Positions 1-8,062 of a DNA stretch of 64,000 bases are shown here, one piece after another. Numbering within the stretch: position 1 is the stretch's first letter; each line of letters starts with the position of its first letter. The stretch comes from Bacteroidales bacterium (lineage in GTDB: Bacteria; Bacteroidota; Bacteroidia; Bacteroidales; UBA932): the NCBI GenBank assembly GCA_029010575.1, contig JAQXKS010000061.1, positions 20,580-84,579 of the forward strand, in the 5' to 3' direction. The position numbers and the translations under genes are program-made. A model generated the notes under the pieces. It saw only the letters and a list, made by a program, of their open reading frames with translations, had not been told where the DNA came from and searched no databases.

Positions 1-464
1 TCAAGACTCCCATTGTTGACGATAATAGCGGAATAGAAATGATCTGCCAGTCTGACTCTTTCCTCATCCCTCTTTTGTCTTTCTTCATCGATGTCTATAA
101 GATTTTTCACATCTCTTCGTATATAAATTGGAATGATACGAAATTCAAGTTGGAATTTTCTCTGCATTTCCACCAAAGCCCTTTCGTCAATGATGTAAGT
201 ACATGGTCGATATTGGGGAACCTGAGCTTTATTGGCCCAATAATGGTGGCCCCCAAACTGGGTATAGGCAAGCATTACATCTTTTGATGGCATCTGCTCT
301 TCAGTTACAAAAAGATGTTCAACCCCATCTTGTTCCCCTGGACGCATTGGCCTGGTGGTATAGGAGATTATCGTAGGAATGTTATGATGCTGGCAAAGAT
401 AATTGGCCAGTGTAGTTTTCCCACATCCAGAGGGGCCTACAATTGCGATGATTGTTCGTTTCAT
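1..464 (-). CDS. guanylate kinase-like (d)NMP kinase; C-terminal end runs off the window
   Basis: Own minus-strand translation from ATG at 464: MKRTIIAIVGPSGCGKTTLANYL.. (P-loop). It is followed by TTRPMRPGEQDGVEHLFV, close to the guanylate-kinase signature TTRxxRxxExxGxxYxF. ATGA overlap with the stop of the upstream gene. Absent from the ORF track because no stop lies in the window. Confidence 0.6.
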   Translation of the reverse strand, partial: MKRTIIAIVGPSGCGKTTLANYLCQHHNIPTIISYTTRPMRPGEQDGVEHLFVTEEQMPSKDVMLAYTQFGGHHYWANKAQVPQYRPCTYIIDERALVEMQRKFQLEFRIIPIYIRRDVKNLIDIDEERQKRDEERVRLADHFYSAIIVNNGSL

Positions 465-2632
465 AGTATTTCCAATACGCTTTTTCTATAGAATTGTAAG
501 TTATTCTTGCCCTGATAATCGCTGTATTTCACAACCGCAGAGCAAATAATCAACTTGTCCTTAGCGTGCAACAATTGCCCACGCATTTCTGCATACTCTT
601 CACTCCAAACAATACATTCACAGGTATCGTTATTTTGCTGCAAGACCATTTTACAGAAGGTCTTTTTCTCACCTGTTTTCTTATCTTGGTATTGTTTTTC
701 CTCTACTTCAACTACGGTTGCACAAATAGCCACTTTTCTGTCTTCCTCTTCCAGAGGGGCAATATCTTGGATAGTGACATACGAAGCTCTTCCCTTGATT
801 TTAGTCTTGGCCTCTGAATTATCATAGATACGCTTATAATCTATAGCACCCATTCCAGATACTGCTATTTGTTGTTGGCTCCACCAGTAGTGCTTACCAC
901 GCATATCTTCCGGGACATCTTTCTCCGTAATTTCAAAGCCAAGTTGCGTAGCTGCCTTTTCCATTATTGCATAACGCTCCACTACAGATTCAGCGTGCTC
1001 CAGTTTGTCAAAGCAACCGGCAAAGATGAGATTTCTGATGTGTCGCGCATTAACTGGACATCTTGTTGCTTCATCCTCGTTGTCGGGATCATCCCAGTAT
1101 TCGTATTTTTTCAACTTATACTTGAAGATACGGTCAATGAAGTTCTCAATGCTGGTAAATTCTCCATTCTTGTCTCGCTCATTGATAATCCACTCAACCG
1201 CCTTTATTCCAAGCATCTTAATTCTGGAAAGAGACCAGAAAATTGAGTTTGTATTATAATCCGTGTAAAAGATTTGCCTGCTGATATTGATGTCCGGAGC
1301 TACTACCTTGGCATTACTACAAGCTTCCATTTCGCCCATTAAGGATACAATTTCCTTATCATCGGCCCATTGAAGAGCAACGGTATAGAAAGCTACCGGG
1401 AAGTTAGTTTTTAGCCACGCTCCCGCATAAGCAGTAGCAGCATAGGCAGTAGCGTGAGATTTATTGAAGCAATATGTACCGGCATCTTCAATCTGCGCCC
1501 ATATCTTATCGGCATCTTCCTGAGGGCAACCATTTTCTTTTGCCCCTTTCATAAACTTTTCCTTCATGGCCTGGATCTTGTCCACTTTCTTTTTAGACAC
1601 GAACTTCACCAGTTTCACACCATCTCCAAGGCTGAATCCCCCTACCTCACGAGCCATACTTACAATCTGCTCTTGATATACCACTACTCCGAATGTATTT
1701 TTCAGAGAATTATATGTACCCCAAAGATATACTGGGGCTACCAAACCATTCTTACAGTTTACATATTCATCGATATTGCCCATCGTAGCCGGACGATAAA
1801 TTGCATTGGCGGCAATCAAATCTTCAAGGCAATTGGGTTTCATATCTATCAGCAGTTTTGTAATACCCTTGGAACTGAACTGGAAGACATTTTGTGTATA
1901 GCCTTTACCAAGTATTTCATAAACCTTAGGATCATCCATATCCCCAGTTACGATACCTTCCAATGACACATCTTTACCGTAATGCTCTTTGATAAGGTCG
2001 AATGTTTGATGAAGTTTGGAAAGTTCTTTGGTAGCTAAGCAGTCGTTTTTTAGCAATCCCAATTCATCCAGCTCATATCCATCATTTTCGCTGACCAATA
2101 CTCCATCTATTTTCTTAATTGGTACGAAATCAAAACACTCCATATCTTCGCCGTCTTTCTCATCAGGCGTGATAAGTAATGCTGAAGCGTGTATTGAACT
2201 GGAGCGAGGCTGAAACATCAGCGTTCTGATGTCTTCAAACAGTTGTGGGTAGTCAGCAATGAACTTGGCAACCTTTTTCTCAGTTGCAGCTAATTTGAAG
2301 ATACCTGTATAGTCACACTTATCATCATCAAAGATTGCTGTGATATAGTTAACGAGGCTTACTGGTATCCTCATTGTACGAGCCACATCTTTAAGGCACG
2401 CCTTAACTTTAAGCGTAGTCAAGGTTCCAGCAGAAAATACTCTCTGCTTCCCATTGTGATTATATCGCTGCTCGGTATATGCCTTGACATCTTGCCTCCT
2501 GTCTGACTGAAAGTCGCAATCTACATCTGGAAGACTTCCTCCGGGGCCTTGTAAATAACCTTTATCAACAAAGGTATCTAATACAGTAACCGGGGAGTTG
2601 GTATGCCTAATTTTAACGCTTTTAATTTTCAT
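461..2632 (-). CDS. dnaE: DNA polymerase III alpha (DnaE-type), C-terminal fragment (palm catalytic aspartates, fingers, C-terminal OB-like region)
   Basis: After a 32-aa non-homologous head it reads SLPDVDCDFQSDRRQDVKAYTEQRY..QRVFSAGTLTTLKVKACLKDVARTM, the PDxDxDF catalytic block and following region of DnaE. Also FNKSHATAYAATAYAGAWLKTNFP (conserved F-N-K-S-H-x-A-Y motif). Confidence 0.85.
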   Translation of the reverse strand: MKIKSVKIRHTNSPVTVLDTFVDKGYLQGPGGSLPDVDCDFQSDRRQDVKAYTEQRYNHNGKQRVFSAGTLTTLKVKACLKDVARTMRIPVSLVNYITAIFDDDKCDYTGIFKLAATEKKVAKFIADYPQLFEDIRTLMFQPRSSSIHASALLITPDEKDGEDMECFDFVPIKKIDGVLVSENDGYELDELGLLKNDCLATKELSKLHQTFDLIKEHYGKDVSLEGIVTGDMDDPKVYEILGKGYTQNVFQFSSKGITKLLIDMKPNCLEDLIAANAIYRPATMGNIDEYVNCKNGLVAPVYLWGTYNSLKNTFGVVVYQEQIVSMAREVGGFSLGDGVKLVKFVSKKKVDKIQAMKEKFMKGAKENGCPQEDADKIWAQIEDAGTYCFNKSHATAYAATAYAGAWLKTNFPVAFYTVALQWADDKEIVSLMGEMEACSNAKVVAPDINISRQIFYTDYNTNSIFWSLSRIKMLGIKAVEWIINERDKNGEFTSIENFIDRIFKYKLKKYEYWDDPDNEDEATRCPVNARHIRNLIFAGCFDKLEHAESVVERYAIMEKAATQLGFEITEKDVPEDMRGKHYWWSQQQIAVSGMGAIDYKRIYDNSEAKTKIKGRASYVTIQDIAPLEEEDRKVAICATVVEVEEKQYQDKKTGEKKTFCKMVLQQNNDTCECIVWSEEYAEMRGQLLHAKDKLIICSAVVKYSDYQGKNNLQFYRKSVLEIL

Positions 2633-3956
2633 AATACATACTCTTATAAGTCACTCTATCGAAGATATTACCGTGTGCCTTATAAGCGTGTTCAAAAGCA
2701 CTCAATTCATGATCTGGGAAGATCATACGCTGGGAGATGAAGTTTTCCGAGGCGATGCCTTCCAGCGAGGTACATCGGCTCAACGCTACATAAAGTTGTC
2801 CTGGGCAGAACATTCCTTTAGAATGAATTACGATATTATCAAATGTCAATCCCTGACTTTTATGAATAGTGATTGCCCAAGCCAAAGTGAGAGGAATTTG
2901 CTTGCAACCTCCCTTAACAACTCGTTCAATCTTCTTCTCTGGTACACCATTCACCAGACATTCCTGTACTTTATATTCAGCCTGTTCCCAGTTGAACGGC
3001 GCAAGCTCGACAGTATTGCCATTATCGAGAGCCACAGTTACTGTATTCTCAGATAGAGCCGAAACAAAGCCCAAAGAGCCATTGTAAAAGCGATGCTCTC
3101 TATCATTCACCAAGGTCATTACTCTGGCCCCGATACGCAAGCTCAAAACATCATCACAGGGCATAGAATTAGCATTGAAATCGCCATCCAATATAGCCTT
3201 ATATGAATGTGTGGGTGTTCCCAACAGTTTATGATTGATTTCTACTACATCATTTTTCAATGAGCAGATATGAATGTATTTGCCGCCATAATCTGCGCTC
3301 AGAGTTTTGTTCCTACGCTCTTCCAAGCTGGCAATATCGTCAGGGGTTAAACGATAGTTGCGTATATTATTAAGGATGGTAATGAAATTGGCATCTGACT
3401 GCCTAAAAATATGTGTCAGTTCAACGATACGAAAACCCTTCTCACGAAAGACTTTTGCATTGAAGAAATATGGCCCAGGGTAATATGTAGCTAACGCATT
3501 CTTTTCTGCTGAAGTCACTACCGGTGGCAATTGATGCAAATCTCCAAACATAACTACCTGTATGCCCCCAAAAGGTTCAGAGTTTTGACGATATAAGCGC
3601 AACTTGATGTCCACGAAATCTAAGACATCTGCACGCACCATACTGATTTCATCAATCACCAATATATCAATGGCATTGGCCAATGCTTTCTTGGCTGGAA
3701 AGAACTTAGAATCCTGAGCAGATGTAGGCCCAAGTACACCAAATGGTATATTGAGAAAACTGTGTAAGGTAATGCCACCCGCATTTACAGCCGCTATGCC
3801 GGTAGGAGCGGTGATGATGAATCGTTTCTCTATGTTTTCAACTATATATTTAAGGAATGTGGTTTTCCCTGTTCCAGCTTTACCAGTGATATATAAGTTT
3901 TCATTGGTATTCTGGATCAACTCGATGGCTTGCTGCATTTCATCGGTTACTATCAT
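2622..3956 (-). CDS. Pif1/RecD-family SF1 helicase, located between the two dnaE fragments
   Basis: Walker A GKAGTGKTT, Walker B VIDEISMV, FGDLHQLPPV, and C-terminal ITIHKSQGLTFD, typical of Pif1/RecD helicases. ATGA overlap upstream and 11-nt overlap downstream. Confidence 0.8.
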   Translation of the reverse strand: MIVTDEMQQAIELIQNTNENLYITGKAGTGKTTFLKYIVENIEKRFIITAPTGIAAVNAGGITLHSFLNIPFGVLGPTSAQDSKFFPAKKALANAIDILVIDEISMVRADVLDFVDIKLRLYRQNSEPFGGIQVVMFGDLHQLPPVVTSAEKNALATYYPGPYFFNAKVFREKGFRIVELTHIFRQSDANFITILNNIRNYRLTPDDIASLEERRNKTLSADYGGKYIHICSLKNDVVEINHKLLGTPTHSYKAILDGDFNANSMPCDDVLSLRIGARVMTLVNDREHRFYNGSLGFVSALSENTVTVALDNGNTVELAPFNWEQAEYKVQECLVNGVPEKKIERVVKGGCKQIPLTLAWAITIHKSQGLTFDNIVIHSKGMFCPGQLYVALSRCTSLEGIASENFISQRMIFPDHELSAFEHAYKAHGNIFDRVTYKSMYYEN

Positions 3957-5659
3957 AACTCGTCAATCGTAAAGAGTTCATCCTTGTTATCGAACAGAAT
4001 AATGTCCTCATCTCGGAGTTCGTCTGCATATATCGTGATGGGTGCTTCCTCTCCTTCACGCTTTACATACAACTGTGCATCCTTGTCAATTTTTATCGTT
4101 TTGCCGTTTTCAAGTGTAATTTCCACATAATCTGTTGAAGAGATGTCTTCACCTATTATGGTTGTGTCTGAAGGGTAAAGACCTGCGCGTTCCGGCAAAA
4201 GGAAACGCTCAAAAATCAGATCATACTTCAACGGATCAATTAGCGTGATTCCCAGCAAGTAAAGAAGAAGAGAACCGGCGGCTGAACCTCGCCCACAACC
4301 TACCAAAATATTATTCTTACGGCTCCAGTTACAAGTATCGTATTGTACAAGAAGGTAATCAACATTGTTCGTGCTTTCAATGATGTATTTTTCATACTCC
4401 ATCTGATTACGATATTTTTCCTGGCTTTCTTTATCTTTAGGAACGAGCCTGTCAAACCCCTCTTCAAGTAGTTGACAAAACATATTATGAACAGTGCCAT
4501 ATTTTTCCTTTTCCTCAGGAGTCATTGTGTATTTAGGCATAAAGTTCCTATCATTCTCAAACTTAGCCTCAGCATGTTCAGCGATGTAGTTGGCATTATC
4601 AACACATTCACGGAACAATTTGTCAATATCCCAACGCTCGGCATCAAACAGATTAGCAAATAGCGCATAATGCTCATCTGCATCTTTGAAATACTGTTCA
4701 TCACTTTGTTCGTGGGCCGCACCGCTTGCAACTTTGTTAAGGATAATTTTATTTCTTGCGTCACTTTTGTCCAAATAATATGCGTCTGTAATCAGGACTG
4801 GCGGCAATTTGTCATATAACTTATGGAAGTATAGTTTCTGGGCCTCTAATACGCGTATATCTATCCTCTCGGCCTTGAATTCAGTTAAATCTACCTGGAA
4901 GAATGTTTTATCAAACTTCGTAATCAAATCTTCCATTTGAACTGGATGGGAAATGAGCCAGTCTGCCGAATATTTATCAAACACGAGCACATTACCCTCC
5001 CCACGATTTTTCAGTTCATTAAAGGTGACGGTCTGATCTTCACTATCCACCATTATAGCTTTCTGAATACGAAGCAGGTTTCTCAGGCCCTTTTGTGTCT
5101 GAACATATACCTTGGCCCCTACAGTTTCTTCTCCGTACTTAAAGGTCAAAGAATAACCAAAAACCCATTTGATTCCAGCTGCCGAACAAACCTTCTGAAG
5201 ATTGTAACAAGCAGCCATTGTATTTCGGTCGCAAATACCTATAGCCTTATGACCACAAAACACAGCTTTCTTAACCCACATTTCGGGCATAAAGCTGCCA
5301 TTGAGCAATTCAAACGGGCTATGACACCCCAGATTTACAATTTCATACTGATGTTGAAGTTCCGCTTTTATTCCTACATATTTCAAGATATTCAGAGCAA
5401 ATCCTTTGCGTAAATCAAAGTAATACCAATTGTCACCGAATTTGAAAACTATGTAATTGATGCCCTCAGCGATCAATACGCTCGGCTCTTCAACACTGTT
5501 GAAAATCAATTCACCATCATTGTTCAGACGAAAGATAGAATTCAACTTATTGGTATTCTCATAGTACGCCTTGCCCAATCCTGGCATTTCAATTACCTCG
5601 TTGTCGATGATATTATACTGTATTTTATTGGCTTGCAGCCATTCAATCAAATCATTCAT
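3953..5659 (-). CDS. dnaE: DNA polymerase III alpha (DnaE-type), N-terminal fragment (degenerate PHP domain to start of palm)
   Basis: PHP-like region GCHSPFELLNGS..AIGICDRNTM..GIKWVFGYSL. It ends with GCGRGSAAGSLLLYLLGITLIDPLKYDLIFERFLLPERAG, the conserved GRGSAAGS..FERFLNPER block, then a 75-aa non-DnaE tail. Confidence 0.85.
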   Translation of the reverse strand: MNDLIEWLQANKIQYNIIDNEVIEMPGLGKAYYENTNKLNSIFRLNNDGELIFNSVEEPSVLIAEGINYIVFKFGDNWYYFDLRKGFALNILKYVGIKAELQHQYEIVNLGCHSPFELLNGSFMPEMWVKKAVFCGHKAIGICDRNTMAACYNLQKVCSAAGIKWVFGYSLTFKYGEETVGAKVYVQTQKGLRNLLRIQKAIMVDSEDQTVTFNELKNRGEGNVLVFDKYSADWLISHPVQMEDLITKFDKTFFQVDLTEFKAERIDIRVLEAQKLYFHKLYDKLPPVLITDAYYLDKSDARNKIILNKVASGAAHEQSDEQYFKDADEHYALFANLFDAERWDIDKLFRECVDNANYIAEHAEAKFENDRNFMPKYTMTPEEKEKYGTVHNMFCQLLEEGFDRLVPKDKESQEKYRNQMEYEKYIIESTNNVDYLLVQYDTCNWSRKNNILVGCGRGSAAGSLLLYLLGITLIDPLKYDLIFERFLLPERAGLYPSDTTIIGEDISSTDYVEITLENGKTIKIDKDAQLYVKREGEEAPITIYADELRDEDIILFDNKDELFTIDEL

Positions 5660-6702
5660 AACTGTACTATATTAAGTCCATACTCAATTGGTGTTTTCAA
5701 ATTGATGGAGAAAACATCATATATGTCCCAGAAATCCATGCTGTCAAAATCCTGCTCAGGATCTGAAATGAAGGCAATGTAAGTGTCAAAATATTCATTG
5801 AGCTTTGATGCTGCCGATTTGATACTTTCAACTGCATCGCCATCATAACCGATAACAACTGTTCTCACACCCTTTGCTTGCAGTTTATATATCTGGGCAT
5901 CAGAAATCTTTTTGCCGAATGTGGCCACCGCTGCAATACTATGATTGTCATACAGGTTGAGTTTTCTGGTAAGCGCAATAACATCAAACACACCCTCACA
6001 AATGATTACAGTGTCGGTTTCATCTTCAATTACAGAATCATAATTATAGAGCAACTTCACAAAATCATTCTCACCCTCCTTAAAGCCACTGTTGTTGTAA
6101 CGGCGAATTTCATATTTTCCATTCAATCTGGCTTGTTTATTATGCTCCTCTATCTTCTCCTTACTCCAAGTATGACGAGATATGTAGCCAACAATATCAC
6201 CATTATCAATAATGGGGAATACTACATAATCATCAAATTTGAAATTCAAACCTCTGGTGGTTCCAACTGGGAAGAAATCAAAGTCATCGTAAGTAAAGCC
6301 ACGAGATTTAAGATAGCTATTCTTGTAGCATCTCTTCCATCCTTCGGGCATTTCCACAATGTTCAATTCGTCATCTATTTCATCCTCATCCAGATTAACA
6401 AATTGCGGAATTGTAACCGGCCCGAATGATGCTGTTTCTTCAATTTTAAGGTCTGTGCGGCCAATATCGTCAAGAAGACGATTAACATCCTTAACTGTAT
6501 GACCACATGAAAAGCAGTGCCCCATAAATAGCTTCTTCTTGGCGGTCTCTGTTCCCACATATATACCGAACTTACCTCCAGTATGCCCACAATAAGGACA
6601 TATAGGAACAATGATATTCTTACGCCCTCCATCCAGTTTAGCGTGTAATTCAGTACACAACTCCTGAATCAAGTATTCCTTTTCCTCTCTGCTGATATAC
6701 AT
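5656..6702 (-). CDS. DNA primase (zinc-ribbon plus TOPRIM, DnaG/T7 gp4-primase-like)
   Basis: CPYCGH..HCFSCGH zinc-binding motif. TOPRIM-like ICEGVFDVIAL and VVIGYDGD. Sits directly between the helicase and polymerase genes. Confidence 0.7.
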   Translation of the reverse strand: MYISREEKEYLIQELCTELHAKLDGGRKNIIVPICPYCGHTGGKFGIYVGTETAKKKLFMGHCFSCGHTVKDVNRLLDDIGRTDLKIEETASFGPVTIPQFVNLDEDEIDDELNIVEMPEGWKRCYKNSYLKSRGFTYDDFDFFPVGTTRGLNFKFDDYVVFPIIDNGDIVGYISRHTWSKEKIEEHNKQARLNGKYEIRRYNNSGFKEGENDFVKLLYNYDSVIEDETDTVIICEGVFDVIALTRKLNLYDNHSIAAVATFGKKISDAQIYKLQAKGVRTVVIGYDGDAVESIKSAASKLNEYFDTYIAFISDPEQDFDSMDFWDIYDVFSINLKTPIEYGLNIVQL

Positions 6703-6703
6703 A

Positions 6704-8062
6704 CTAATTCACTTTATTGATGTTCATACTGCGCTGACGGTCATAAAAGCATTCGTGCTGATAGTCCGTAGCTATTCTGAAAGGCTCTCCCTTTTCAAAG
6801 AAGCGGGATTTAGCGACAAATAATCTCATTGTATGCTCTTTCCTCTCTCTATCTGACTGATTGAGCGTCACCAAATGTGTAAGAGGCCTGGCAATACCCT
6901 TTGCTTCTGAAGAGTTATATTCGGTAAGTACATTCTTCTCGTCATTTAACCACTCACGATTTTCGATGGTGGACTGATAGGTTACTACCATCCAAACATT
7001 CTCATCAGATGCCAAATCCTTCAGATCGTTGGCCACTGCAATGCGTTTATGCCGCTCTCCGTTTTCGCCCCATTGCCTACCTGATGAATCTGTAAGAAGG
7101 TCAAGTGAATCTATAATAATGACATCTGGATTGATTCCGTAATGTTTGCGAAAATCAGCAATACTGTTTTTTATATCTACCGTAGATACATTGCAATTGA
7201 ATTTCGGGTATGATTTCACATATAGCTTTCCGGCAATGGATTGAAGTTGTTCTTCAAATTTTGCAATATCTACATCACGAATGGTTCCAGTTTCATATCT
7301 AAAAGAATCGCATGAAACAAGGGCGGCAGAATAAGCGTTTACGGCCTCTTCTTTACTACCCTCTAACTGGAAATGTAGAACATTCAAGCCATCTACTTGA
7401 CACGCATTCTTACCTATCCATCGGGCAATATGACTCTTTCCTACGCCCGTAGGGGCCATGAAGCAAGTCAGCTGGGTGCGAAGTTCCCTTCCACCATTCA
7501 TTTCATCCAGCTCATCAATGTAGAATCGTGTAATTGGTGAACGCCTCGTATTGTCATTATGCTTTTGACGATTTTGCTTGAAACGCAAGCTAAAGGTATC
7601 GATCACATCCACAAACTCAGGCGATTTAAGGCTAAAGGATTGTGCCCATTCACAGTATTCCAGAAGCTTAGTAGATGCCTTTTCGTGCCCCTGCTTATTA
7701 TAAAGTTCACCAACTTCTTTGTAGATTTTCTGGAATTTTACCTGCTTAATGTAACTTTCCAGTTGTTCTAAAAGTTGCTCATTGCTAATGATAGATGCAC
7801 TTTCAAATATATCTTCCAATAGATTGACTACACCTTTATCATTGGCTACCATTTGTTTCAGAATACTATATGATGGAGCTTGCTTATACTCTTTATAATA
7901 GGAGTATATGCAGGTGTGAAGCTTGATAAAATCTTTATCAGGCAGGAAATTCTTATGTATATGCTCCATTACAATTGCAAGAATGTACTCATTCTGCATG
8001 CAAGTGAAATAGACATCCATCAAGAATTCTTCCGTCAAGACACTATTTTGTTGATTCGCCAT
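6704..8062 (-). CDS. DnaB-like replicative helicase
   Basis: Walker A FMAPTGVGKSH, Walker B VIIIDSLDLL. Size is about 450 aa with a helical N-terminal domain. Adjacent to primase. Confidence 0.7.
   Translation of the reverse strand: MANQQNSVLTEEFLMDVYFTCMQNEYILAIVMEHIHKNFLPDKDFIKLHTCIYSYYKEYKQAPSYSILKQMVANDKGVVNLLEDIFESASIISNEQLLEQLESYIKQVKFQKIYKEVGELYNKQGHEKASTKLLEYCEWAQSFSLKSPEFVDVIDTFSLRFKQNRQKHNDNTRRSPITRFYIDELDEMNGGRELRTQLTCFMAPTGVGKSHIARWIGKNACQVDGLNVLHFQLEGSKEEAVNAYSAALVSCDSFRYETGTIRDVDIAKFEEQLQSIAGKLYVKSYPKFNCNVSTVDIKNSIADFRKHYGINPDVIIIDSLDLLTDSSGRQWGENGERHKRIAVANDLKDLASDENVWMVVTYQSTIENREWLNDEKNVLTEYNSSEAKGIARPLTHLVTLNQSDRERKEHTMRLFVAKSRFFEKGEPFRIATDYQHECFYDRQRSMNINKVN

What the first reader, a model, noticed from the sequence alone, without database searches (positions are those of the whole stretch)
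2537..4180. Flanks of the dnaE interruption resemble a decayed split intein lacking all splicing nucleophiles
The 75-aa tail of the N-fragment is LYPSDTTIIGEDISSTDYVEITLENGKTIKIDKDAQLYVKREGEEAPITIYADEL... The 32-aa head of the C-fragment is MKIKSVKIRHTNSPVTVLDTFVDKGYLQGPGG, followed by SLPD. By eye both resemble Hint blocks of the cyanobacterial split DnaE intein as I remember it: CLSYETEIL; LEDGSLIRATKDHKFMT; MIKIATRKYLGKQNVYDIGVERDHNF..ASN-C. The matches are xLxxxDTxI (block A), LENGKTIKIDKDAQLYV versus LEDGSLIRATKDHKFMT (block B), VTVLDTFV versus VYDIGV (block F), and a +1 Ser. However, the position-1 Cys/Ser, the block-B Thr and His (here Asp and Ala) and the terminal His-Asn (here Gly-Gly) are all missing. 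My hypothesis is an intein-derived Hint fold kept as a non-covalent clamp joining two polymerase halves, or an unusual splicing chemistry. The slot normally held by a homing endonuclease is occupied by a helicase gene.
Basis: inference. Interest (0 to 1): 0.7.

Follow-up and report, generated by a model that had tools for sequence, protein, structure and literature searches.

The report
Splicing-dead split intein joining phage DnaE
A Bacteroides-type phage makes its replicative DNA polymerase from two separate genes, and the two broken ends carry the conserved remains of a split intein that can no longer splice, so it most likely holds the two halves together without a covalent bond.

Summary
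On the minus strand, dnaE is cut between FERFLLPER and SLPDVDCDF. The N-fragment (5659..3953) ends in a 77-aa tail, a PIF1/Dda-like helicase gene follows (3956..2622), and the C-fragment (2632..461) starts with a 32-aa head.

Sequence, profile and structure searches all point to a Hint/intein origin:
- Pfam Intein_splicing is the commonest family hit of the tails.
- A tail+head profile finds only inteins in the PDB, best E=0.002.
- Foldseek's top hits for the tail model are inteins and Hedgehog.

In 142 distinct tails and 63 distinct heads the catalytic Cys/Ser-1, the block-B Thr and His, and the terminal Asn are absent. The +1 Ser is replaced by Ala, Gln or Asn in some relatives, so splicing is very unlikely.

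Tail and head are about as conserved as the enzyme. They are always present, including in the cultured phages BS-TP1 and Cellulophaga phiST. They carry opposite net charge. A non-covalent clamp is the best reading, but I could not test it.

The helicase is incidental. In relatives the slot is empty, or holds small genes, or holds HNH or GIY-YIG homing endonucleases.

In 11 relatives the C-fragment carries a hairpin, a stop codon and a 7–12-nt coding gap in the catalytic motif; eight also carry an HNH gene. This resembles the T4 mobA/gene 60 cassette.

The parts
3953..5659 (-). dnaE N-fragment (568 aa): N-terminal domain, PHP domain and the first part of the palm, up to FERFLLPER, plus the tail
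   Evidence: ORF. Pfam PHP and DNA_pol3_alpha positions 5-99. More than 120 homologues of about 568 aa. AF2 model with pLDDT 83.6.
4187..4213 (-). FERFLLPER, the last polymerase (N-extein) residues before the break
   Evidence: Read directly from the sequence. F483, E484, R485, F486, P489, E490 and R491 are invariant in alignment A4.
3956..4186 (-). 77-aa tail (residues 492-568), a degenerate IntN-like Hint remnant. Ala stands at intein position 1, Asp34 and Ala37 stand in place of the block-B Thr and His, and the net charge is -14.
   Evidence: Sequence, profile and structure searches. Conservation. Residue statistics.
3989..4129 (-). Core of the tail (tail residues 20-66): five beta-strands that superpose on the block-B part of Hint folds
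   Evidence: AF2 of the tail alone gives pLDDT 66-78 here; in the whole N-fragment it is 79-91. Foldseek rmsd is 1.3-1.9 A over 39-44 residues against inteins and Hedgehog.
2622..3956 (-). PIF1/Dda-like SF1 helicase gene sitting in the slot between the two dnaE halves. Its overlaps with both neighbours suggest translational coupling.
   Evidence: Pfam PIF1 E=8.7e-30 and AAA_30. Annotated 'Dda-like helicase' in phage BS-TP1. Present in most relatives but not all.
2537..2632 (-). 32-aa head of the C-fragment (MKIKSV...GYLQGPGG), a degenerate IntC-like remnant. It ends in Gly-Gly where an intein has His-Asn, and its net charge is +3.
   Evidence: The profile alignments to the KlbA intein and to Pfam Hint run from the tail across the junction into the head. 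63 distinct heads were examined.
2519..2536 (-). SLPDVD: the first polymerase (C-extein) residues, including the catalytic Asp-x-Asp of the palm. The junction here is uninterrupted, unlike in 11 relatives.
461..2632 (-). dnaE C-fragment (723 aa): rest of the palm, fingers, HhH and OB domains
   Evidence: Pfam DNA_pol3_alpha positions 93-260, DNA_pol3_finger and HHH_6. Homologues.

Best explanation
The phage's replicative polymerase (DnaE) is encoded as two polypeptides. The break lies inside the palm, one residue before the catalytic SLPDVD motif.

The 77-aa C-terminal tail of the N-fragment and the 32-aa N-terminal head of the C-fragment are the two halves of an ancient split intein. This was a 'fractured gene', probably created when a free-standing homing endonuclease invaded an intein. 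The intein has since lost every residue needed for protein splicing.

The remnant is kept by selection. After translation the acidic tail and the basic head most likely dock into one Hint-like beta-structure. In a Hint fold the N- and C-termini lie side by side, so docking would bring ...PER-A and G-SLPD... together and rebuild the active-site loop without a peptide bond.

The helicase gene between the halves is a passenger in a slot that readily accepts genes.

What is shown: the split, its conservation, the Hint ancestry, the loss of catalytic residues and the variable slot. What is inferred: the docking of tail and head, and that this docking is what assembles the enzyme.
For: Hint ancestry:
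- Pfam Intein_splicing is the top or only hit of the tail (E=0.0035-0.037). It is hit by 13 of 26 diverse tails, best E=1.5e-4.
- The fused tail+head also hits Pfam Hint (PF01079) across the junction.
- The PDB profile search with 31 real tail+head pairs returns only inteins (KlbA E=0.0021, TFIIB intein 0.031, PI-PkoII 0.051). The alignment runs through the tail|head junction.
- Foldseek's top hits are inteins and Hedgehog in the PDB (probability 0.90-0.95) and intein-bearing phage proteins in BFVD (probability up to 1.0).
- P0279, a fragment that begins with a canonical block A (CVVGDTKITMADGS), matches the tail profile at E=3e-4 against 1.8 billion proteins.

Position and architecture:
- The two fragments abut in the Pfam polymerase model.
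- In 40 hits of an exhaustive search the tail is always C-terminal. No contiguous version was found.
- In relatives the slot holds HNH or GIY-YIG homing endonucleases, as in fractured genes (PMC2677866).

No splicing:
- Residue after PER: A139, C2, G1.
- Thr-equivalent is never T or S. His-equivalent: A135, S7.
- Heads end GG, HG or SG, and never in N, Q or D.
- The +1 residue is A, Q or N in some relatives.

Functional constraint:
- Mean column identity is 0.70 for the tail, against 0.74 for the PHP domain and 0.78 for the palm.
- Tail and head are present in every locus that holds both halves, including the cultured phages BS-TP1 and phiST.
- Net charge averages -12.8 for the tail and +1.6 for the head.
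- The junction-proximal ends of the tail are conserved but modelled with pLDDT below 50, both alone and within the N-fragment. This fits segments that need a partner.
Against: - No direct test of tail-head association was possible.
- Every Hint score is below family thresholds. The E-values are about 1e-4 to 1, and a profile-profile comparison with five real inteins from relatives gave only P=0.027.
- The remnant (109 aa) is shorter than any working mini-intein. It lacks the segment between blocks A and B and the last strand, so it may not form a complete Hint fold.
- In phiST the tail (about 53 aa) and head (17 aa) are shorter still. The polymerase halves may therefore associate largely through their own palm interface.
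- The tail's charge of -14 far exceeds what pairing with a +3 head requires.
- The most conserved stretch, FDNKDxLFTINEL, has no canonical IntN counterpart. Another partner or function is possible.
Confidence: 0.6

Rival explanations
1. The Hint remnant is real and conserved, but its job is not to tether the halves. The two palm pieces would associate through their own interface. The very acidic tail, and perhaps the head, would bind another replisome component (clamp, helicase, primase or SSB) or regulate the polymerase.
For: The tail's charge (-14; family mean -12.8) is far larger than the head's (+3; mean +1.6). The most conserved segment, DDILFDNKDxLFTINEL, has no canonical IntN equivalent. 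phiST works with a much shorter tail and head. In the N-fragment model the tail core folds as a fairly confident independent beta-domain, pLDDT 79-91.
Against: Tail and head occur only together and only at the break. The profile alignments to contiguous inteins run straight from the tail into the head. Heads swapped in with endonuclease cassettes keep the same conserved positions. Split inteins are known to associate tightly (established knowledge).
Confidence: 0.2
2. Tail and head are not intein-derived. They would be generic extensions (CTE/NTE) brought in by a free-standing homing endonuclease cassette, as proposed for T4 mobA (genes 39/60) and mobE (nrdA). The tail would be a small SH3-like beta-domain that resembles part of a Hint fold by convergence.
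For: Relatives carry HNH cassettes that bring their own head copy. The CTE/NTE idea is described in bioRxiv 10.1101/2022.08.31.505936. Some tails give weak hits to SH3-like families (SH3DP, Myosin_N). All Hint scores are sub-threshold.
Against: Four independent kinds of search put Hint/inteins first, well ahead of SH3-like families. Tail and head are colinear with a contiguous mini-intein across the junction. Twelve of 63 heads keep a penultimate His (..EHG|SLPD), where inteins have HN|. P0279 links the tail to a canonical block A.
Confidence: 0.12
3. The pair still performs protein trans-splicing, or cleavage, by a non-canonical chemistry and so yields a covalently joined DnaE.
For: Inteins with Ala1 exist (class 2 KlbA, class 3; PMC2807308). 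KlbA is the best PDB match. The window has Ser at +1. Two relatives have Cys right after PER.
Against: No head ends in Asn, Gln or Asp (GG33, HG12, SG11 and others). The block-B His is Ala or Ser in all 142 tails. The +1 residue is Ala, Gln or Asn in some relatives. There is no block-F Cys at the class-3 position in the window (Thr). The terminal beta-strand of block G is missing.
Confidence: 0.04
4. The split is an assembly or annotation artefact, or a decaying pseudogene.
For: None beyond the unusual layout.
Against: More than 140 distinct tails from hundreds of independent assemblies share the same break. Two cultured phages carry it. Downstream ORFs are intact and the genes overlap as for translational coupling.
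Confidence: 0.01

Closest known systems
Cyanobacterial split DnaE intein (Ssp/Npu DnaE-n/DnaE-c)
   Same: The same host protein is split into two genes. IntN sits at the C-terminus of the N-part and a 32-36-aa IntC at the N-terminus of the C-part. IntN is acidic and IntC basic. The fold is of Hint type.
   Different: The insertion site differs: PER|SLPD in the palm here, against ...|CFNKSH there (the latter from established knowledge). Here all catalytic residues are lost (Ala1, no TxxH, Gly-Gly end), the remnant is about 30 aa shorter, and the halves are adjacent in one operon rather than far apart. Related phages carry genuine, intact inteins one residue from the cyanobacterial site, at CFNK|SHA.
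'Fractured genes' of marine metagenomes (Dassa et al. 2009, PMC2677866), including three fractured dnaE loci
   Same: A replication gene is broken at an intein. The two intein halves flank a slot that holds a free-standing homing endonuclease. Loss of the endonuclease leaves adjacent halves. Both states are seen among relatives here.
   Different: Those split inteins keep their splicing residues, and some were shown to splice. Here they are degenerate. In the window the slot holds a helicase.
T4 topoisomerase genes 39/60 with the mobA cassette, and Aeh1 nrdA split by mobE
   Same: An essential enzyme is split by a free-standing homing endonuclease. The extensions at the break are thought to hold the pieces together non-covalently. 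The cassette carries the N-terminal extension of the downstream piece plus an untranslated coding gap (bioRxiv 10.1101/2022.08.31.505936; PMC2988022). Relatives of this window show an HNH gene, their own head copy, a hairpin, a stop codon and a 7-12-nt gap.
   Different: The T4 extensions are not Hint-like and the T4 gap is 50 nt. The window itself has neither an endonuclease nor a gap.
Hint domains kept without protein splicing (yeast HO endonuclease, PMC7282813; bacterial intein-like and Hedgehog/Hog domains)
   Same: A Hint fold is retained after loss or change of the splicing chemistry.
   Different: Those are single-chain domains, with endonuclease scaffolding or cleavage/ligation roles. 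None is a two-piece remnant bridging a split enzyme.

Membership tests
Intein (protein-splicing Hint domain) | Hint fold | tested here: inconclusive
   The tail core matches the block-B half of Hint folds: Foldseek probability 0.90-1.0, rmsd 1.3-1.9 A over about 44 residues. Profile hits go only to inteins. The complete fold (tail plus head) could not be modelled. All sequence scores are below Pfam's gathering cut-off.
Intein (protein-splicing Hint domain) | In-frame insertion at a conserved site of a host protein, absent from homologues | tested here: met
   The N-fragment ends at position 99 of the DNA_pol3_alpha profile and the C-fragment starts at position 93. Tail and head are therefore extra residues next to the catalytic SLPDVD motif.
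Intein (protein-splicing Hint domain) | Nucleophile (Cys/Ser/Thr) at intein position 1 | tested here: not met
   Ala in the window. In 142 distinct tails the count is A139, C2, G1, followed by an invariant Gly-Leu.
Intein (protein-splicing Hint domain) | Block B Thr-x-x-His | tested here: not met
   Asp34 and Ala37 in the window (alignments). Across the family the Thr-equivalent is D/F/Y/H/A/L and the His-equivalent is A135, S7.
Intein (protein-splicing Hint domain) | C-terminal Asn (rarely Gln or Asp), usually preceded by His | tested here: not met
   Gly-Gly in the window. The 63 distinct heads end GG33, HG12, SG11, NG2, SS2 and others, with no terminal N, Q or D. A penultimate His survives in 12.
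Intein (protein-splicing Hint domain) | Cys/Ser/Thr at +1 of the C-extein | tested here: inconclusive
   Ser in the window, but this is the conserved Ser of the polymerase motif. Relatives have Ala (L005, L074/75), Gln (L037-40) or Asn.
Intein (protein-splicing Hint domain) | Protein splicing actually occurs | not testable with these tools
   Needs mass spectrometry or SDS-PAGE of the expressed fragments.
Split intein / fractured-gene arrangement | IntN at the C-terminus of the upstream piece and IntC (about 35 aa) at the N-terminus of the downstream piece, split at the endonuclease-insertion point | tested here: met
   The layout is shown. The profile alignment to the contiguous KlbA mini-intein runs from the tail across the junction into the head.
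Split intein / fractured-gene arrangement | Free-standing homing endonuclease gene between the halves | tested here: not met
   The window holds a PIF1-like helicase. The feature is met in relatives: NUMOD4+HNH_3 in L024, L025, L045, L062, L076, L085, L086 and L087, and GIY-YIG+NUMOD1 in L054/56.
Endonuclease-split genes with tethering extensions (T4 39/60-mobA type) | Extensions at the break that are absent from unsplit homologues and hold the pieces together non-covalently | tested here: inconclusive
   The extensions are present and conserved. Association was not testable.
Endonuclease-split genes with tethering extensions (T4 39/60-mobA type) | Untranslated coding gap (bypass element) in the downstream piece | tested here: not met
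   The window junction is uninterrupted (GGAAGTCTTCCAGATGTAGAT). Eleven of 76 relatives have a stop codon plus a 7/8/12-nt gap preceded by a covarying 9-bp hairpin.

The most novel reading that the evidence does not exclude
This would be a natural, widespread example of a split intein that has been domesticated. It has lost all splicing chemistry but is kept as a non-covalent assembly module for a replicative DNA polymerase broken at its active site.

In sister genomes the IntC-like half travels as part of a homing-endonuclease cassette. That cassette also plants a 7-12-nt untranslated gap inside the catalytic Asp motif. Ribosomes would have to hop over the gap, which would make it a second, independent T4-gene-60-like system.
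Probability: 0.45. Interest if true: 0.8.

Novelty: new variant of a known kind. Interest (0 to 1): 0.62.

Why it matters
Split inteins are known as trans-splicing devices, and engineers use catalytically dead split inteins as affinity pairs. A natural case in which selection keeps a dead split intein only as a clamp would show a new evolutionary end-point for inteins. The path would run from selfish element, to fractured gene, to permanent subunit interface. It would also explain how an essential polymerase tolerates a break next to its catalytic aspartates.

The family is abundant in gut Bacteroides phages and has cultured members (BS-TP1, Cellulophaga phiST), so the idea can be tested directly. 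The conserved tail/head pair could also serve as a compact, cysteine-free heterodimerisation tag.

The related endonuclease cassettes, with their hairpin, stop codon and short coding gap, would be new material for the study of translational bypassing and of endonuclease self-immunity.

Tried and rejected
- Megablast of the region against the phage collection: no match. The protein-mode search was needed.
The key docking test could not be run.
- Homologue search with a genuine mini-intein from a relative, meant to build a deep intein profile: no hits.
- Local hhalign of the fused profile against only five closely related real inteins: weak, P=0.027, covering the block-B region only.
- The tail alone, as a sequence or as a profile, against the PDB: an intein and Hedgehog ranked first, but E=0.5-0.9. 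Only the paired tail+head profile reached E=0.002.
- Search for an active intein at the same site (DNA pattern for FERFLxPER-Cys in viral contigs): the single hit belongs to the same degenerate family.
- Exhaustive profile search for a contiguous, unsplit DnaE carrying the tail: none found; the tail is always C-terminal.
- Literature searches for a described degenerate split intein or a split phage DnaE of this kind: nothing found. The 'Gratiaviridae' description mentions DnaE but not the split.
- Rejected: class 2 or class 3 intein chemistry, because there is no terminal Asn, no conserved +1 nucleophile and no block-F Cys in the window.
- Rejected: artefact or pseudogene, because of the conservation and the cultured phages.
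- Rejected: the helicase as a functional substitute for a homing endonuclease, because the slot content varies.

Full report
**1. What is in the window**

All genes discussed lie on the minus strand, at the start of a phage replication module. Upstream of dnaE lie a sigma-like factor (by analogy to BS-TP1 gp7), a small ORF, a DnaB-like helicase (8062..6704) and a primase (6702..5656). dnaE itself is in two pieces.

- The N-fragment (5659..3953, 568 aa) carries a PHP domain and Pfam DNA_pol3_alpha positions 5-99.
- It ends ...FERFLLPER, followed by 77 extra residues (AGLYPS...FTIDEL).
- The C-fragment (2632..461, 723 aa) starts with 32 extra residues (MKIKSV...GYLQGPGG).
- It then continues with SLPDVDCDF, DNA_pol3_alpha positions 93-260, the fingers, HhH and an OB fold.
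- The two pieces therefore abut in the family model. The break lies in the palm, directly before the catalytic Asp-x-Asp.
- A 444-aa PIF1/Dda-like helicase gene (3956..2622) lies between them. It overlaps the upstream stop by 4 nt (ATGA) and the downstream start by 11 nt, which suggests one translationally coupled unit.

The rest of the window encodes SbcCD, NrdD, a DNA ligase, a portal and a tail sheath. This is a myovirus-like phage resembling the proposed 'Gratiaviridae' of Bacteroides (PMC8008677). The closest cultured relative is Bacteroides phage BS-TP1, with 78.7% amino-acid identity over the C-terminal 136 residues of the N-fragment.

**2. The split is ancient, universal and not an artefact**

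- The 120 listed N-fragment homologues (67% identity or more) are all 553-577 aa long and carry the same tail. The corresponding C-fragments carry the same head.
- An exhaustive HMMER search of 1.8 billion representative proteins with a tail profile found 40 proteins. Apart from one unrelated repeat protein, the tail is at the C-terminus in all of them. No contiguous DnaE carries it.
- Eighty IMG/VR loci, several metagenome contigs and two cultured phages show the same break. The cultured phages are BS-TP1 and Cellulophaga phiST (gp044/gp045, both annotated 'DNA polymerase III alpha subunit').

**3. The flanks are Hint-derived**

No single score is strong, but independent methods agree.

- Pfam: Intein_splicing (PF14890) is the only family hit of the window's tail (E=0.0035-0.037). 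It is the commonest hit among 26 diverse tails (13 of 26, best E=1.5e-4). All scores are below the gathering cut-off.
- A direct tail+head fusion also hits Pfam Hint (PF01079, E=0.006), with an alignment that crosses the junction.
- PDB by sequence: the tail alone ranks a TFIIB mini-intein first (E=0.52), and the tail profile ranks Hedgehog Hint first (E=0.87).
- A profile of 31 real tail+head pairs returns five PDB hits, all inteins. The best is the KlbA intein 2jmz at E=0.0021. That alignment runs from the block-B region through ...FTINEL|MKV..V.. into the head. Tail and head are thus colinear with a contiguous mini-intein, and the break sits where inteins carry their endonuclease.
- For calibration, a genuine mini-intein from a relative scores only E=4e-5 to 0.3 against PDB inteins.
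- Structure: AF2 of the tail alone gives five strands (residues 20-66, pLDDT 66-78).
- Foldseek ranks TFIIB, RadA and KlbA inteins and Hedgehog first in the PDB (probability 0.90-0.95 for ranks 1-6, KlbA 0.60; rmsd 1.3-1.9 A except KlbA).
- In BFVD it ranks intein-bearing phage proteins first at probability 0.99-1.0. These include 'Hint domain-containing protein' and 'Intein-containing split DNA polymerase'.
- P0279, an 87-aa fragment that starts with a textbook block A (CVVGDTKITMADGS), matches the tail profile at E=3e-4.

The support is firm for block B, the following strands and the first strand of the head. The remnant lacks the roughly 40-residue segment between blocks A and B and the final strand.

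**4. It cannot splice by any known route**

- In 142 distinct tails the residue after PER is Ala in 139, Cys in 2 and Gly in 1. An invariant Gly-Leu follows.
- The block-B Thr position is never Thr or Ser.
- The block-B His position is Ala in 135 and Ser in 7.
- The 63 distinct heads end GG (33), HG (12), SG (11) and a few others, never in Asn, Gln or Asp.
- The 'HG' endings (for example ...VKAEHG|SLPD) look like a relic of the intein His-Asn.
- The +1 residue is Ser in the window, but this is the polymerase's own conserved Ser. It is Ala, Gln, Asn or Thr in some relatives.
- Class 2 chemistry needs a +1 nucleophile and a terminal Asn. Class 3 needs a block-F Cys (PMC2807308). Neither requirement is met.

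Related phages do carry intact inteins, so active inteins circulate in this gene family. These have C1, TxNH and CN|S, and come with an HNH domain or as mini-inteins. They sit at another site of the C-fragment, CFNK|SHA.

**5. The remnant is under selection**

- Mean column identity is 0.70 for the tail, 0.69 for the N-terminal 100 residues, 0.74 for the PHP domain and 0.78 for the palm. The last 28 tail residues reach 0.77.
- Invariant or near-invariant positions include Gly-Leu at the start, Asp-Ala in block B, YADEL and DDILFDNKDxLFTINEL. In the head they include [IL]D[CT]FVDxGY.
- The tail is very acidic (window -14, family mean -12.8) and the head is mildly basic (window +3, mean +1.6). 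Natural split inteins show the same polarity (established knowledge).
- The conserved ends of the tail next to the junction are modelled with pLDDT below 50. This holds both for the tail alone (residues 1-18 and 68-77) and within the whole N-fragment (486-492 and 559-568), while the core rises to 79-91. This fits segments that fold only on a partner.

**6. Most likely mechanism**

This part is inferred. After coupled translation, tail and head dock into a Hint-like module. The N- and C-termini of that module lie side by side, which places ...PER-Ala next to Gly-SLPDVD and restores the palm loop without a peptide bond. I give this 0.6.

The main rival (0.2) is that the palm halves associate by themselves and the acidic remnant serves another partner. 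In its favour are the much shorter remnant in phiST and the large excess of negative charge.

A non-intein origin, as a generic endonuclease-borne extension, gets 0.12. Exotic splicing gets 0.04.

**7. The slot and the helicase**

The helicase is present in most Bacteroides-phage relatives. The slot is empty in L001, L003/4, L066, L088 and phiST. It holds unrelated small genes in L002, L005, L016/20-22 and L070. It holds free-standing homing endonucleases in about ten loci: NUMOD4+HNH_3 in L024, L025, L045, L062, L076 and L085-87, and GIY-YIG+NUMOD1 in L054/56.

This is the 'fractured gene' layout of Dassa et al. (PMC2677866) with a dead intein. The helicase is a passenger, not a replacement for the endonuclease.

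**8. Side finding in relatives (not in the window)**

In 11 of 76 loci the C-fragment reads ...G-S-L-P, then a stop codon plus 4-9 nt (insert of 7, 8 or 12 nt). GAT-GTN-GAT then resumes in whichever frame results. Deleting the insert restores SLPDVD exactly.

- Immediately 5' of the Pro codon is a 9-bp hairpin. It is fully paired in all 11 loci, against a mean of 4.4 of 9 in 39 distinct uninterrupted loci. Four of its pairs covary, and no shuffle in 500 did as well.
- Pairs of near-identical genomes show that the unit is a cassette: HNH gene, its own head copy, hairpin, stop and gap. Identity resumes exactly at the Asp-Val-Asp codons. The pairs are L024/L027 (98.5% identical), L086/L074 and L062/L063. 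L063 keeps the gap without the endonuclease.
- One mechanism covers all three insert lengths: a short ribosomal hop from CCG to the triplet before GAT (mostly TCG, once CCG). Frameshifting would need +1 in some loci, +2 in others and readthrough in one.
- This closely parallels the T4 mobA/gene 60 cassette (bioRxiv 10.1101/2022.08.31.505936; PMC2988022). It suggests that the gap protects the endonuclease's target.
- It also shows that the IntC-like head is exchanged horizontally while still matching resident tails.

**9. Novelty**

I found no description of a degenerate split intein retained at a split polymerase, nor of this split DnaE. The components are all known: split inteins, fractured genes, Hint domains kept without splicing, and endonuclease-split enzymes with tethering tails. 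I therefore rate it a new variant of a known kind, of moderate to high interest. The decisive experiments are straightforward, and cultured phages exist to run them on.

Noticed in passing
Relatives L013, L024, L025, L045, L062, L063, L066, L076, L085, L086, L087 (e.g. L024:7141-7217, L063:6611-6686); protein P0138. Not in the window (clean junction at 2519-2536).: The C-fragment is interrupted inside the catalytic motif. After ...G-S-L-P come a stop codon plus 4-9 nt (insert of 7, 8 or 12 nt), and then D-V-D resumes in another frame. A covarying 9-bp hairpin lies just 5' of the Pro codon (9 of 9 pairs in all 11 loci, against a mean of 4.4 in clean loci). Removing the insert restores SLPDVD. 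This is probably a short translational bypass (hop), like T4 gene 60.
   Followed up: partly
L024:6549-7105 compared with L027; L062 with L063; L086 with L074; L054/L056 (GIY-YIG): Free-standing homing endonuclease genes sit in the slot just upstream of the head (NUMOD4+HNH_3, or GIY-YIG+NUMOD1). They are presence/absence polymorphisms between genomes that are 97-98% identical on both sides. The cassette brings its own diverged copy of the head. In the HNH cases sequence identity resumes exactly at the Asp-Val-Asp codons.
   Followed up: partly
Proteins P0122, P0125, P0137, P0139 (966-1004 aa) and P0140-P0144 (889 aa); loci L008, L042, L048, L028. The equivalent window position is C-fragment residue 391/392 (about window 1457-1462).: Close relatives carry a genuine, intact intein (Cys1, T-x-N-H, C-N|S) at CFNK|SHATAY of the C-fragment. 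It comes either with an HNH domain or as a 166-aa mini-intein. L028 seems to have two insertions. The window lacks it.
   Followed up: partly
L006 (Bacteroides phage BS-TP1, PQ571274.1, record positions 1-1629 and the record's far end): In this cultured phage's GenBank record the dnaE C-fragment is not annotated. It runs off the start of the linear record, and a small 'hypothetical protein' (gp1) is annotated on the opposite strand inside it.
   Followed up: no
L007 (Cellulophaga phage phiST, gp044/gp045; locus 2762-6362): This marine Flavobacteriia phage has the same dnaE break, with adjacent genes (1-nt spacer). Its tail (about 53 aa, ...YKLTLEDGSIVEL...DIIEGDDLIKY) and head (17 aa, MKIINIEQNTAPKLVNG|TLPD) are much shorter. 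This is a more reduced state of the same remnant.
   Followed up: partly
Protein P0279 (87 aa; metagenome contig of 1487 nt, DNA not retrievable): This fragment begins with a canonical intein block A (..PNA|CVVGDTKITMADGS), and its C-terminal half matches the tail profile (E=3e-4). It ends like a split-intein N-half and is followed by a 389-aa ORF. It may be a less decayed cousin in another host gene.
   Followed up: no
Window 3956-3997 (tail residues 64-77, FDNKDELFTIDEL): This is the most conserved stretch of the tail (D66, N67 and D69 invariant, F72, T73 and E76 near-invariant). It has no counterpart in canonical IntN and is modelled with low confidence. Its partner (the head, the C-fragment body or another replisome protein) is unknown.
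   Followed up: no
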